64,000 nt of DNA. Origin: Sphyrna mokarran (taxonomy: Eukaryota). Every line of letters begins with the position of its first letter. Position 1 is the stretch's first letter. Made by a program: the position numbers. Below are positions 1-5,544 of this stretch, one piece after another. The stretch is from contig JAGIQG010000006.1 in assembly GCA_024679065.1 (NCBI GenBank), forward strand, positions 78,740,001 to 78,804,000. The letters run 5' to 3'.

Positions 1-3000
1 CAGTCGGGAAAGCTCACCCTTAAAGCAGCAGTGGCCCCACAATCAATATGTTAAATATCCCTCAAAACATCATCCACCTTCTAAATTATGTTACTTTGCC
101 AGGTTACAACAATGTTACATCTCTCCTATGTTGCCACAATTAGTGGATGGGGTTAACCTCAGCTCCAGAATGTTATAGCTCTGAAATGAATGAAAACTTA
201 AGATAGTATAGGGCATTTGGAGAATTCTTTTTAAGATGATGCAACTAAATCTGATCTAAGTTTGAGGGATAAATTGACCTGAGGCCACTGTGCCATGTAG
301 AAGCTTTGGAAGAGGCGGACCATCTTTTACACCTCCTCCTCAGTACAGATCAGTACATGATACAAAAGACAAAAGCTAGCCATTAAAAAGACAGGGAATA
401 AATTCAATTTTAGAATATAACGTGCGGCAATGCAACTATTGTACAAATAAAGTACAGCAATCATTAACTTTGCAAAACCAGATGACAAATATCCTCGCGA
501 GTCAGCGATGCTAACACAACTTGACTACAAGTCCTGTTCCGGCTTACAAATCTGCTTAAATTAGAATTGGTTATAAATCAATTAAATTTCACAAACTCTT
601 TAACAAACAAAATTGAGGAAAACAGACACTCCTGTTTAAAACTCTTTCTACCTCCAGTTCTTTCCCACAAACTGGAGTTGTATGAACTCAACTTCAAAAA
701 CACTGTCCAAAAGTATGTGGACTTAAAAATCATTACTGTGCAATATTATTTGTTGATTTTGTTCCCCCCCACCCTCATTCCCACTTAAAAATTGCAATAC
801 TATGCTGACCACATAGATGCATACCCAACCAGGGACCAGTGGAATTAGTAACTCTGGCATGACCATATTATTTAATTTAAAGGGCTGTCAGTCACTGAAC
901 ACAAACTATACCACCTCCAACTATACAAAGATGTTGAACATTAAGCAAAACAACGACCTGTGGGTTCATACATCTCCAGTTAGTCTAACTGTTCCATAAA
1001 ACAAAGTACACCGCGAAGTGACATCAGCTATGACATCAACTCAAACCTAAAAATAAATAAGTTTCAATTACAAAACCTAGTTAACTGATGAAGGAAGTCT
1101 TGAACAGAAACCAACTGGCATGATTGGCTTGGAAATGCATAAAATCTCTTCTGTTTGGATGCCGAGGCTAGACTGCTTTTCTTTTTTGGAAAATGACTGA
1201 ATAAATTAATCTTGGTTGCTTCAGCCAAAGCTGTAACTGTGTAGATGTAAAATATATGCAACTATGACAGCTGATAGTCTATACCATAACGGCATTTCAA
1301 GCTCATCAACTTACAGAATTAAAATCTTCATGCAGTAAGTAAATATTTAACTGGTAAAAAGGCAGAAAATATTGGATTATGGCAAAACAAATTGTCGTCC
1401 AAAGAGGACTTTTCTTTTAAAGACACTGCGACAAAGCAATAACGGCAAGCTATAAAACTGCAATGATTATAATAAAACTACTGATACACAGCAATACAAT
1501 TTAGTGTTGCCAACAGGAAATTCAACAAAACTTCTTCCATCACCAAAAATCACCCAGTTCAAACTTCACAAAACAACTAAAATTAATGAGTACCACATTT
1601 CTCTCGTAGAGCCCTACACCTGCAGTTTACCAATTAACAATAGGGCAGGTAATTTGTTATTTAGAAATCAGCATTTTCACTGTTTCTTGGGCTTATTACA
1701 CAAGGTTGTAGTACGTGGGCAGCAACATGCACTACACACAGTAAGTGCAGAAATTCAGGGCATTTGTTGTGTGATACCAGTCGTGTCAAATTATTTACTC
1801 CAAATCAAAATTCAGGCCTCACAGGATTGCTTAAGTCCATTTGATGGAATACAAGTTGCATTTCAACTCACACAAAAGGTGTAATCTGTCAATACAAATT
1901 CTGGCACAGAAGTCTTTAGCCTCCTGTACTTTTAGTGCTATTTAAAAATAAAACAAGCCTAGTGCTATACCTTCATGTTCACTTCAGTAAAATTAAACTT
2001 CAGCAACAATGCTTAAGCGCTGACGATCATCTACAAGATACAACTATCTCTAGTTAAGTCAGATATTACAATTTTCCAATAGCTGTGAAAGAGGAAATAA
2101 ATGTTTCACCTAGCTGCATACAGGTCAAATTACTCTTTTTCAAATTCCATTAGCAAGATTTTTAAACTACTATAAATTAAGTATACAGTAATCTACTTCA
2201 GTGGTATTTTCAGAGAATGCTATGTTCTACAGTATGTCAATACTTGGTCCGTGTCATGTATATTTTGAAGTTACTGTAAGTATCTGCAACATATTAATTT
2301 GAGTTCCAGTAATAGGTAAATATGAGGCCATATTTTTTTAAAGTGGTTCCCATTTCATCAATTTCTCTCTTCCAATTTCTATAGATCATGTTTCAACTAT
2401 GATAAAGGTGGGTTGTGATTACTTATTGCAGCTAATGGACAAAAAACACAGATCACTGCACTATCCTTTCCAATATACAAGCAGTTCTCAAATAGCAGAG
2501 CTCGGTGAACATGCTATCAGTGCATCCGAAAGGATTGCTGAAAAGTAGTTATAGAACTCAGCAGCTTAAAAAAAAATAATAACAGAGCGATAGGATTTAG
2601 TCAATGACCCACGATAAAATAGACTGAGTGCTGGAAATCTAAAGTATAAACAAGAAATTATAAGAATACACTTGCAACTTAGATAGTGCCAGGAAGTGAA
2701 AAAGTTAAGCTGTCATCGCAGGATTTTTTTTGTAAAGATATTCCTTCTGAAAAAAAAAGTCAACTTGCTTTCCCTTTCTTTTGGATGCTAACTGAATTCT
2801 CATGAGTACGTCTATTAATGTTGCCAGTGTTAAAAGTGTATACTGAAGCATAACAGAAGTTTGAGATCACAAAGGAAGATCTCAGAAAGGCGCTGCTCAT
2901 CTTACATTCCATCAAATAGTGCGAATTTTGCACTATAAATGCAAGTTAAATATTCCTGCTACACCTAGAATTCAGCACCTGCAGATGCAAATCTTGCCCT

Positions 3001-5544
3001 ACATTATCTGATCCTTCAAAGCTTTGCAATATTTTCTAAACTAAAACTTTACATAAACAAACTTCTTCCGGTCAAAAAGTGCATAACACTGGTGCTCCTT
3101 CAGGCAAGAGCAACAACATTCATCATCTTAAGTTCTACAATAATAGCAGCCTATTAAAAGCAAAATATAAGGTGCATGACTTGTCTAGTGATCTAGTAGG
3201 ACCCTAGTTCACAGACAGTTCCATTTCATAAAATGTATGCATTGCAGTTACTGGCGCAACTGTGCTTCAGTTAAGTTCGCCAGCTCAATGAGAGCCAGAG
3301 CCCCATGCAGTCGCTCCCGTTGCTCTTGCATACGTCGGCATGCTGCAGCATGTGGCCCATTTTTCTCCTCATCTTCATCTTCATCAGACTGTATGAACTC
3401 CAAAGGGTCTTGCTGCTCCTGGTCAGCCTTCTGTCCAGTAGTCTTTACAGGATGGGTACGTTGTTCTCGGGTCTCCCAGTATCTAGAAGACAGAATTCAG
3501 AAAGTTAGCATTTCCAGTTTAACAAGTTTTTCGTCACATCCAACACTGGGAAATAAACCACTTTGGAAGATCCATTTTTAATCATCAATCATAGAATCCC
3601 CACGGTGCAGAAGAGGCCATTCAGTCCATTAAGTCTGCACTGACTTTTTGATACAGCATCTTTCCCAGGCTCTCTTTCCCACTGTAAGTGCAGAAATTCA
3701 GGGCATTTATTGTGCAATGCCATGTATGTCAAATCATTTGCTCCAAATCAAAGTCCAGGCCTCACAAGATTGCTCAGGTCCATTTGATGGAATACAAGTT
3801 GCATTTCAACTCACACAAAAGATGTAATGTCAAACATTCTGACACAGAAGTCTTTAGCCTCCTGTACTTTTAGTGCTATTTGAAAATAAAACAAGCCTAG
3901 TGCTATACCTTCATGTTCGCTTCAGTAAAATTAAACGTTAGCATGCCTCACACATTTCCCATGGCCAATCCATTTAACCTACACATCTAGTGACACTAAC
4001 GGGCAACTTATCACGGTCAACCCACCTGTCCAACGTATCTCTGAAGTGTGGGAGGCAACTGGAGCACTTGGAGGAAGCCCATACAGACATAGAGAGAAGG
4101 TACAAACTCCATTGACGCAAAGTTGGAATTGAATCCTGCCTGTGAGGCAGCAGTGCTAACCACTGTGCCAATTTGCAATAGCTGGAGGCCTTTCTTTGGC
4201 ATTATTTCATCCAAACACATGTACAGCTTTCCCAGAAATACATACCTAACAATTGATCTTTTAAAAAGGAGCTCTGGGGGAAAAAAGCACTTAAAAATAC
4301 AACCAATCTCTCTCCACGGAATAACAGAAAAGTCCACAGCAAATTCAGTGAAGAGAACTTCTTCTGCGGTATAAAAACTAATCAATTTGCTGTGTCACAA
4401 TTAAGGTGAAGATAAATGGGATCACAATTTACCAAACAGAAAACTAAAAGTTGGGGATAAATACAGAGATCCAGAATAGACCAATCAGAATCCAGACACA
4501 TAGCTCTGGTAAATCAACACAATGAACCTTAGAATATAACTCACCTTACAAACCAGCTACTCAAAGTGCTCTCACTGATCCAAAATTTTACCATTTACAA
4601 CATGCTCAAAGCAGTAATCAAAACCTGATTTGTTCTCCCTTCACTATTAGATCAACTACTGAGACAGTGGGTGGGTTTCAGCATCCAACTGTAAGACATC
4701 TAATTTTCAAAAGGGGCAGTGTCCAGCAGGTTGCACCTTTCTTCTCCAAACTTCAATCTGAATCTATGGAATTGTTTCCAGAGTGAATAATTGGATATTT
4801 TAGCAACACGTGATAATAATGGATTATTAGTTGATACACTGAAAATAAAAATAAACCTTTTTCCAGAAGATATTCTTTCTAAACATACTCACTTTGCCAG
4901 CCATTCTGCAACAGCCTTGTTGTCTGCAGCCTGTGTTTTGTTAGCTCCATTGGACACTTCATCTCTCCGTAAACGTGCATAAGGATGTTTGGTGCAGTGG
5001 CGGTTAGCATGTGTAAACCTGCTTCCACAGCCTGCGCAGAAAACCAGTGATGTTACGCCACTTTTCTCATACAAACTGCATCGCTCTTTAACAACGTAAT
5101 TCAGAGGAAATGATTCCCAGAGCTAACACTACCTTAATCCAACTCTCAATAATTGAAACAACATTCAAGATCTGATGCAATCAACTTACATTTCATATGT
5201 AGCAACTCTACACTCCAAGAGCCAAGCTGTAGCCTGTGCCCTGGGAGAGCAGGTGCTCAGCTAATAGAGGAAGTGCTGAATTAAGCAATAGGTTCTGTTC
5301 TGTAAAGTTTCTTTCTGGCTTGCCATTCCCTACGCCTCTGTTTCCAATACTAGCATCCACATCCTGTGCAAGCCTCATTAACAATGCAACCCTGCGCTTC
5401 ATGCCATTAGATTCTAAATATCTTCAGTCCAGAATGATTTTGCTTGTGTTTGCAGAATTGCCTCATTTGCAAAAATGACAGTGAACATAAATGCATCAAT
5501 GCCTTAGTGAAAGATGCTCCAATTTGTACATTACACCCTCCTCA

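What the first reader, a model, noticed from the sequence alone, without database searches (positions are those of the whole stretch)
1741..4170. A SINE has captured a ~260 bp piece of its host gene's own 3' UTR
Seen: 1741-2005 (ZNF367 3' UTR) is repeated in the same orientation at 3684-3943, in the middle of a minus-strand SINE in ZNF367 intron 4. The SINE reads ...CCACT-GTAA | insert | CCTCACACATTT, resuming essentially where it stopped (the intact copy at 34960-34985 reads CCCCATAACCTCACACATTT). The left junction has a GTAA microhomology with the donor. Inference: SINE RNA and ZNF367 mRNA are both minus-sense, which fits the LINE reverse transcriptase jumping from SINE RNA onto the local ZNF367 transcript and back during target-primed reverse transcription. 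The alternative is later templated double-strand-break repair (Pol theta end joining or SDSA).
Basis: partly seen in the sequence, partly recalled or inferred. Interest (0 to 1): 0.75.

Follow-up and report, generated by a model that had tools for sequence, protein, structure and literature searches.

The report
Repair patch copied into a SINE
About 260 bases of the ZNF367 gene's tail region were copied into an old mobile-element relic 1.7 kb away, most likely when a chromosome break was patched with nearby DNA, a known and ordinary source of small local duplications in vertebrates.

Summary
Window 1741-2005 recurs in the same orientation at 3684-3943 (238 of 260 aligned bases identical). These are the only two copies in the 64 kb. 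The second copy splits one SINE copy in ZNF367 intron 4 without loss of any SINE base, and a GTAA microhomology lies at one junction.

The SINE flanks carry far more private change (34 of 217 well-agreed columns) than equal age predicts for the duplicate (22 of 260 observed against about 28% expected).

A second SINE copy (14204-14678) carries a 174-base patch copied, inverted, from 0.8 kb away in intergenic DNA.

Not checked: orthologous introns and genome-wide copy number, because no shark genome was on hand.

Verdict: a new member of a known kind, of low to moderate interest.

The parts
1741..2005 (.). Donor segment, 265 bases, in the inferred ZNF367 3' UTR. Homology may run on to 2012 if a 4-base gap is allowed.
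   Evidence: position relative to the stop codon and poly(A) signal
3582..3687 (-). SINE copy A, tail-side part. It ends in ..CACTGTAA, and the last 4 bases are shared with the donor start.
3684..3945 (.). Inserted copy of the donor (the patch). 3684-3687 (GTAA) is microhomology shared with the SINE. 3944-3945 (TG) is either filler or the end of the copy.
3946..4176 (-). SINE copy A, head-side part, resuming with CCTCACAC.
3248..3482 (-). ZNF367 last coding exon (3251-3482) with its stop codon (3248-3250).
850..3247 (-). Inferred ZNF367 3' UTR. It runs to the only canonical poly(A) signal on this strand, at 876-871. The low bound is approximate.
   Evidence: inference only, no transcript data
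4892..5032 (-). ZNF367 exon 4 (bounds of the tblastn match). Intron 4 is therefore about 3483-4891.
14204..14403 (-). SINE copy E, tail-side part (second case).
14404..14577 (.). Patch inside SINE copy E, an inverted copy of 15398-15570. 146 of 169 aligned bases are identical.
14578..14678 (-). SINE copy E, head-side part. 12 SINE bases are missing between the two parts, judged against copy C.
15398..15570 (.). Donor of the patch in copy E. It lies in intergenic DNA between ZNF367 and HABP4.

Best explanation
Long after the SINE had inserted into ZNF367 intron 4, the chromosome broke inside the SINE. One 3' end paired by a few bases with DNA about 1.7 kb away on the same chromosome or sister chromatid, inside the ZNF367 3' UTR. 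It was extended for about 265 bases, came off, and was joined to the other end of the break through microhomology. The result is a conservative local duplication: the donor is untouched, there is no target-site duplication and no poly(A), and the SINE reads on exactly where it stopped. [quoted passage not shown]

What is shown: the anatomy, the junctions, the locality, and the smaller divergence of the duplicate.

What is inferred: the break itself, the polymerase and pathway, which end primed synthesis, and that the template was DNA rather than RNA.
For: (1) No SINE base is lost at the patch. Two ends of one break explain this without further assumption.

(2) Junctions: 4-base microhomology (GTAA) on one side and 0-2 filler bases on the other. 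There is no poly(A)/T at either end, no terminal inverted repeats (8 of 30 and 5 of 30 matches, chance level), and no duplication of the target.

(3) Locality: these are the only two copies in 64 kb and they lie 1.7 kb apart.

(4) Age: SINE A differs from the other copies at 34 of 217 columns where at least 75% of them agree, 16 of these being transversions (36 of 221 with slightly different bounds). Three-point estimates from the pairwise distances give a terminal branch of 0.16-0.21. Equal age would predict about 28% difference between donor and patch. The observed value is 22 of 260 (8.5%, 4 transversions), P 4e-15. Using only the more diverged first 94 bases gives 15 of 94, P 0.004.

(5) A second, independent case. 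SINE copy E has a 174-base patch copied in inverted orientation from 817 bases away, with 12 SINE bases lost and an imperfect microhomology of about 9 bases at one junction. It too is younger than its SINE: 23 of 169 differences against 27.7% expected, P 1e-5. Its donor lies in DNA where none of the 25 ORF translations of 70 aa or more matched a Pfam family; HABP4 starts only at about 21.5 kb.

(6) All of these values fall within the published ranges for proximal repair-mediated duplications. In that set the donor is under 5 kb away, mean length is 162 bp (maximum 619), microhomology is 2-9, deletion 1-15 and filler 1-68 bases. None of 39 inspected cases had poly(A), and 11 of 824 donors lay in 3' UTRs (PMC2671141).
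Against: 'Private' differences of copy A include any differences of its source gene from those of the other 4-7 copies compared. If about three quarters of them are of that kind, the ages become equal. If half are and the donor is frozen by selection, the test loses all force (P 0.63).

The SINE's private changes have a transition:transversion ratio of 18:16, against 18:4 in the duplicate. This hints at alignment noise in the SINE comparison.

Mismatches in the duplicate are unevenly spread: 15 of 22 lie in the first 94 bases (permutation P 0.02). Later gene conversion may therefore have made the pair look younger.

Both clear local single-copy duplications whose acceptor can be named fall in one SINE family that covers only about 2.1 kb (3%) of the window. 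A SINE-linked process would predict exactly that.

The microhomology and the direction of synthesis fit a reverse-transcriptase jump equally well.

No empty orthologous site has been seen.
Confidence: 0.65

Rival explanations
1. During target-primed reverse transcription of the SINE RNA, the LINE reverse transcriptase jumped at GTAA onto ZNF367 RNA, copied about 265 bases, and jumped back onto the SINE RNA. The patch is then as old as the SINE insertion.
For: Geometry fits. If the SINE is minus-sense, the SINE RNA and the ZNF367 RNA have the same sense, and the growing cDNA end ..GTAA could pair with the UTR. Double template jumps by LINE enzymes are documented as tripartite chimeras (PMC2104539, abstract). 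Two of 8 SINE copies in the window carry local patches, which suggests a link with SINEs.
Against: It fails the equal-age prediction for both cases. It needs a return to the exact base that was left in A, and to within 12 bases in E. In the published chimeras I saw, different RNAs are fused end to end rather than A-B-A, and they carry target-site duplications (abstract; passages). Here the flanks share no repeat beyond chance: the longest shared word is 6 bases, reached in 836 of 2000 shuffles, for A, and 7 bases, reached in 290 of 2000, for E. The donor of E is not in any recognised gene. Nothing explains why, of all cellular RNAs, one from 1.7 kb away would be used. SINE orientation itself is unconfirmed by any model.
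Confidence: 0.12
2. A break in the already resident SINE was patched with a reverse-transcribed piece of ZNF367 RNA, as in a class 2 templated sequence insertion, rather than with chromosomal DNA.
For: The donor lies in a transcribed region of the same gene. Class 2 templated insertions are 73-414 bp long, have microhomology and non-templated bases, lack target-site duplication and poly(A), and were reported to be enriched for transcribed sequence and reduced by reverse-transcriptase inhibitors (PMC5110952, parts 1-2 of 4). Size and junctions here fit.
Against: Those insertions came from distant loci on many chromosomes with no regional preference, whereas here the donor is 1.7 kb away. The parallel case E has an intergenic donor. 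The copied piece crosses no splice junction or poly(A) site, so nothing in it marks an RNA origin.
Confidence: 0.1
3. The 265-base segment is a dispersed repeat (a small transposon or other mobile piece). One copy happened to land in the SINE and another in the UTR.
For: Nested insertion is the commonest reason for an interrupted repeat: the majority of more than 492,000 interrupted repeats in the human genome (PMC2671141). Genome-wide copy number could not be checked.
Against: There are only 2 copies in 64 kb, 1.7 kb apart, and the same holds for the E pair at 0.8 kb. There are no terminal inverted repeats, no target-site duplication and no poly(A). The pair is 91.5% identical, against 62-76% for most pairs of SINE copies in the window.
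Confidence: 0.07

Closest known systems
[quoted passage not shown]
   Same: A transposable element is interrupted by at least 50 bp that is a copy of unique DNA under 5 kb away on the same chromosome. There is microhomology, small deletion and/or filler at the junctions, no poly(A), and the donor is intact. UTRs are among the donors (11 of 824). The events are detected by using the repeat as the 'before' state.
   Different: That survey covered mammals, chicken and zebrafish. I found no report for cartilaginous fish (searches: 9 and 20 papers, none on this by title or abstract start). The published cases were validated by empty orthologous sites, which I could not do. Two cases in 64 kb is far denser than the published 0.08-0.65 per Mb of repeat DNA, but one of the two was the reason the window was chosen.
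Class 2 templated sequence insertions / polymorphisms (Onozawa and Aplan, PMC5110952)
   Same: A patch of 73-414 bp at a break, with microhomology and non-templated bases, no target-site duplication, no poly(A), and an intact donor.
   Different: The donors are distant and on other chromosomes, and are thought to pass through RNA. Here the donor is 1.7 kb away in cis.
Chimeric retrocopies from LINE reverse-transcriptase template switching (bi- and tripartite chimeras: PMC2104539; LINE-1 chimeras: bioRxiv 10.1101/2025.02.02.635956)
   Same: Sequences of two RNAs are joined in one retrocopy in the same sense, and double jumps are documented.
   Different: In the parts I read, the known chimeras are end-to-end fusions of different RNAs, flanked by target-site duplications, whose parts are of like age. 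Here the SINE is resumed at the base where it was left, no flanking duplication is seen, and the parts differ in apparent age.
Polymerase-theta / SD-MMEJ templated insertions and MMBIR template switches
   Same: Synthesis is primed on a nearby template by microhomology and followed by microhomology joining. I saw search listings and abstract starts only (PMC5728401, PMC8421209, PMC12426944).
   Different: By my recollection, not from a call, such insertions are mostly a few to a few tens of bases copied from within tens of bases of the break. Here 265 and 174 bases were copied from 0.8-1.7 kb away.

Membership tests
Proximal repair-mediated duplication (PMC2671141) | Two fragments of one repeat copy, in the same orientation, whose repeat positions adjoin within +/-30 bases | tested here: met
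   A: 0 bases lost, judged against copy B. E: 12 bases lost, judged against copy C. Judged against sister copies, not a consensus.
Proximal repair-mediated duplication (PMC2671141) | Intervening sequence of at least 50 bp that is not part of the repeat | tested here: met
   258-262 bases in A and 174 bases in E
Proximal repair-mediated duplication (PMC2671141) | Donor on the same chromosome, more than 50 bp and less than 5 kb away | tested here: met
   Gaps of 1675 and 817 bases
Proximal repair-mediated duplication (PMC2671141) | [quoted passage not shown] | tested here: inconclusive
   Two copies only within the 64 kb and no transposon hallmarks. The rest of the genome was not available.
Proximal repair-mediated duplication (PMC2671141) | Junction signatures (microhomology 2-9, deletion 1-15, filler 1-68 bases) and no poly(A)/T tract of 5 or more | tested here: met
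   A: 4-base microhomology and 0-2 filler bases. E: 12-base deletion and an imperfect microhomology of about 9 bases. No A/T tract at any of the four junctions.
Proximal repair-mediated duplication (PMC2671141) | Empty (uninterrupted) orthologous site in a related species | not testable with these tools
   No eukaryotic genome collection was on hand. As a substitute I used the age comparison, which points the same way.
LINE reverse-transcriptase template-switch chimera | The whole chimera is flanked by one target-site duplication | tested here: inconclusive
   No shared flank word beyond chance. By my recollection SINEs with this kind of tail often lack such duplications, so absence is weak evidence.
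LINE reverse-transcriptase template-switch chimera | The parts were made in one event and are therefore of equal age | tested here: not met
   Donor-patch divergence is 8.5% against about 28% expected from the SINE flanks, P 4e-15. For E it is 13.6% against 27.7%, P 1e-5. Caveat: subfamily structure was not controlled.
LINE reverse-transcriptase template-switch chimera | Donor is an expressed RNA of the same sense as the element | tested here: inconclusive
   A: the donor is in the inferred 3' UTR and has the same sense if the SINE is minus-sense. E: the donor is intergenic by the Pfam scan of ORFs of 70 aa or more. No expression data.
tRNA-derived Deu-type shark SINE (SacSINE1-like; PMC5499810) | tRNA-related head, conserved central domain, L2-type tail | tested here: inconclusive
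   No tRNA model match in any copy tested. No reference sequence of that family was on hand. The name is a lead from passages of PMC5499810 and from recollection only.

The most novel reading that the evidence does not exclude
The patches are tied to the SINE's own biology rather than to random breaks. Either way, SINEs would act as frequent collectors of neighbouring host sequence.
Probability: 0.13. Interest if true: 0.65.

Novelty: new member of a known kind. Interest (0 to 1): 0.25.

Why it matters
It shows that break repair by capture of nearby DNA, described in mammals, chicken and zebrafish, also left marks in a shark genome. [quoted passage not shown]

It also warns against reading every foreign piece inside a retroelement as a product of retrotransposition.

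There is one modest lead. A second, unascertained case in the same 64 kb gives a point estimate of 16-31 events per Mb even if half or all of the window counted as repeat DNA. The lower 95% bound is 0.4-0.8. The published range is 0.08-0.65 per Mb of repeat DNA. If this holds genome-wide, sharks would either make or keep such patches unusually often. That would be in keeping with slow sequence decay, which leaves old events readable.

Tried and rejected
- tRNA detection in the SINE heads: ARAGORN on the whole window found 0 genes. Rfam at E up to 1 on 1-9000 gave 0 hits. Rfam at E up to 10 on two heads gave only chance-level hits to unrelated families.
- Terminal inverted repeats and target-site duplications around the patches and around the SINEs: none beyond chance.
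- Local templates for two smaller private insertions in SINE copies (35070-35105 and 3640-3665): none within the window, apart from one G-run match 12.9 kb away.
- RNA structure as a reason for the better-conserved half of the duplicate: z-scores -1.28 and +1.09, nothing unusual.
- The pair 56515-56567 / 59120-59173 looked like a third local duplication. It is the conserved end of another interspersed repeat family.
- Assembly artefact: rejected, because the two copies differ at 22 positions and 2 indels.
- Reverse direction of copying, from intron to UTR: rejected, because only the intron copy interrupts a known unit and no SINE sequence flanks the UTR copy.
- Not attempted: any consensus of the SINE. 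Its two parts were compared apart, with counts only.
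Full report
**What is there.** Window 1741-2005 recurs in direct orientation at 3684-3943. The repeat finder reports two blocks, 1737-1885 / 3680-3828 at 89% and 1898-2005 / 3836-3943 at 95%. blastn gives 90.4% over 270 columns, E 3e-98. A global alignment has 238 of 260 aligned positions identical, 18 transitions, 4 transversions and 2 gap events. Sensitive blastn finds no third copy in the 64 kb. 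A self-comparison of the whole window lists 27 repeat pairs, and this pair has depth 1 on both sides. The window has no N. Nothing in it was taken for human: the best named match of its coding sequence is a shark protein.

**The host element.** The flanks 3582-3687 and 3946-4176 belong to an interspersed repeat of about 320 bases with 8 recognisable copies in the window. I label them:
- A: the interrupted copy
- B: 34884-35207
- C: 6828-7146, opposite strand
- D: 8360-8652
- E: 14204-14678
- F: 19540-19726
- G: 25216-25391
- H: 51430-51600, opposite strand

I compared the two parts of A with the sister copies apart from each other and built no consensus. Against copy B, the left part runs to the TAA just before CCTCACAC and the right part resumes at that CCTCACAC. 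No SINE base is lost or doubled. The GTAA at 3684-3687 is both SINE sequence (copy E reads GTAAC and copy B ATAAC there) and the first four bases of the donor, so it is a 4-base microhomology. At the other junction, homology ends at 3943, or at 3945 with a 4-base gap. That leaves 0-2 filler bases and at most 1 base of microhomology. The patch has no A/T tract at either end. It has no terminal inverted repeats (8 of 30 and 5 of 30 matching). The target is not duplicated.

That the repeat is a tRNA-headed SINE read on the minus strand is plausible but not shown. ARAGORN and Rfam give no tRNA match. The orientation rests on the reiterated terminal motif at the low-coordinate end in 5 of 5 aligned copies and on promoter-box-like motifs whose consensus I recall. 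Passages of PMC5499810 describe an old tRNA-headed, L2-tailed SINE family in sharks, which may be this one. I had no reference sequence with which to test that.

**The gene.** I searched the last coding exon alone (3251-3481, 77 aa). 301 proteins had E up to 0.001 among 338 candidates, and the listed names are ZNF367. The best was Chiloscyllium plagiosum at 96% identity. Three named shark and ray ZNF367 proteins were then compared with the window by tblastn. This gives separate matches per exon: 10432-10169, about 7775-7611, 5790-5668, 5032-4892 and 3487-3251, all on the minus strand. The SINE lies in intron 4.

The donor lies 1243-1507 bases past the stop codon. Between 877 and 3247 the minus strand has no AATAAA or ATTAAA, while the plus strand has 8 (shuffle mean 4.1, P 0.0125). 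The first such signal is at 876-871. A 3' UTR of about 2.4 kb that contains the donor is therefore likely, but it is an inference without transcript data.

**Timing.** For each SINE copy I counted how often it departs from columns where at least 75% of the other copies agree (at least 3 others present). This gives a count without writing any majority sequence. The left set had 5 of the 8 copies, because F, G and H lack or do not align over that part. The right set had 7 of 8 and all 8.
- Copy A departs at 34 of 217 such columns (15.7%; 16 transversions) and has 5 private indel events. With slightly different bounds the count is 36 of 221.
- It is not an outlier. The other copies give 7-23%.
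- Three-point estimates from the pairwise distances put A's terminal branch at 0.16-0.21.

If patch and SINE were made in one event, donor and patch should now differ by about 28%. They differ by 8.5% (22 of 260; P 4e-15). Transversions alone give 4 of 260 pairwise against 16 of about 220 private to the SINE (Fisher P 0.002, on the 16 of 221 count).

Against this reading:
- The test has no outgroup and no subfamily control.
- If half of A's private changes stem from its source gene and the donor is frozen by selection, the difference vanishes (P 0.63).
- The transition:transversion ratio of the SINE's private changes (18:16) is unlike that of the duplicate (18:4), which suggests some alignment noise.
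- The duplicate's mismatches are clustered, 15 of 22 in the first 94 bases (permutation P 0.02). Later conversion may have rejuvenated part of it. Using only those 94 bases still gives 15 of 94 against 28% expected (P 0.004).

**A second case.** SINE copy E (same orientation as A) is split at 14403/14578 by 174 bases. These match 15570-15398 in inverted orientation, 146 of 169 aligned bases identical, 817 bases away, and again there are only two copies in the window. Twelve SINE bases are missing, judged against copy C. The right junction lies in an imperfect shared run of about 9 bases. Copy E departs at 33 of 214 agreed columns. Equal age predicts 27.7% for its duplicate, and 13.6% is seen (P 1e-5).

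A Pfam scan of 121 ORF translations of 70 aa or more from 10.8 to 64 kb finds HABP4 on the plus strand from 21499 onward (IHABP4_N, E 4e-31). None of the 25 ORF translations between 10,987 and 21,339 matched a Pfam family. Short exons would be missed. So E and its donor lie between two divergently transcribed genes, with no recognised transcript to jump to.

**Mechanism.** Both models extend the same 3' end, so junction microhomology and direction do not tell them apart. Four things do:
- The duplicates are younger than their SINEs.
- The SINE resumes at the very base where it stopped in A, and 12 bases on in E. Two ends of one break give this for free, whereas a polymerase returning to its first RNA template would have to find that spot.
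- The donor lies 0.8-1.7 kb away in cis in both cases, once inverted.
- One donor is intergenic.

I therefore favour break repair after insertion, with synthesis on nearby chromosomal DNA (confidence 0.65). The pathway, the priming end, and DNA rather than RNA as the template are inferences.

**Comparison with what is known.** Pace et al. 2009 (PMC2671141) describe exactly this. I read parts 1-2 of the text, section 12 and found passages, but not the supplements. Their findings:
- Repeats interrupted by at least 50 bp copied from unique DNA elsewhere.
- In the human genome, 824 of 1,136 cases have the donor within 5 kb.
- Mean length 162 bp, maximum 619.
- Microhomology 2-9, deletions 1-15 and filler 1-68 bases.
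- No poly(A) in 39 of 39 proximal cases inspected.
- 11 of 824 donors in 3' UTRs.
- Events also found in other mammals, chicken and zebrafish at 0.08-0.65 per Mb of repeat DNA.

Their supplementary Table S1 and Figure S1, which I did not open, may hold per-event orientation and breakpoints that bear on the comparison.

Class 2 templated sequence insertions have like junctions and sizes, but distant donors that are probably RNA-derived (PMC5110952, parts 1-2 of 4). Chimeras from LINE template switching are, in what I saw, end-to-end fusions with target-site duplications whose parts are of like age (PMC2104539, abstract and outline; bioRxiv 10.1101/2025.02.02.635956, passages). No flanking duplication beyond chance is seen here. 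Two searches found no report of such duplications in cartilaginous fish: 'repair-mediated duplication' gave 9 papers, and shark + SINE + double-strand break + duplication + transposable gave 20 papers.

**What stayed unchecked.** The orthologous introns of other sharks and the genome-wide copy number of the two segments were not checked. Expression of the donor regions was not checked either.

**Verdict.** This is a shark example, in fact two examples in one window, of a known kind of repair-mediated local duplication. One lead is worth keeping. A second, unascertained case in 64 kb, both cases in a SINE family that covers about 3% of the window, hints at a higher density than published or at a link with this SINE. 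With a count of one, however, the lower confidence bound overlaps the published range.

Noticed in passing
window 14204-14678 and 15398-15570: A second SINE copy carries a 174-base internal patch (14404-14577) copied in inverted orientation from 817 bases away in intergenic DNA. Twelve SINE bases are lost at the site.
   Followed up: yes
window 1741-2005 vs 3684-3943: Mismatches between donor and patch are clustered: 15 of 22 lie in the first 94 aligned bases (permutation P 0.02). RNA folding of either half is unremarkable. Possible causes are later gene conversion or constraint on part of the UTR; neither was resolved.
   Followed up: partly
window 44696-45191 and 45311-45800: A large inverted repeat with arms of about 496 bases at 80% identity, separated by 120 bases, lies downstream of the last HABP4 domain match. 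ORF translations in it had no Pfam hit. It could be a fold-back element or an inverted local duplication.
   Followed up: no
window 56104-56380 and 57532-57809: An inverted pair 76% identical over 286 columns, 1.15 kb apart and single-copy in the window. It may be two old copies of a repeat or another local duplication.
   Followed up: no
window 877-3247, minus strand: No AATAAA or ATTAAA on the gene's strand over 2.4 kb of AT-rich sequence, against 8 on the other strand. This is as expected if a long 3' UTR is kept free of early poly(A) signals.
   Followed up: partly
window 21499-43206, plus strand: HABP4 lies head to head with ZNF367. Its N-terminal domain is at 21499-21978 (E 4e-31), with further exons at 27086-27301, 37185-37397 and 42904-43206. 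There is a weak reverse-transcriptase match at 23876-24211 on the minus strand (E 0.0037, below the curated cut-off).
   Followed up: no
window 56515-56567 and 59120-59173: Two copies of the conserved end of a different interspersed repeat family, 92.6% identical over 54 columns. Its terminal motif resembles that of the SINE family studied here.
   Followed up: partly
window 19540-19726 and 25216-25391: Partial SINE copies F and G keep the presumed head end and lack the presumed tail end. This is the opposite of the 5' truncation usual for retrocopies. Either later deletions occurred or the assumed orientation needs care.
   Followed up: no
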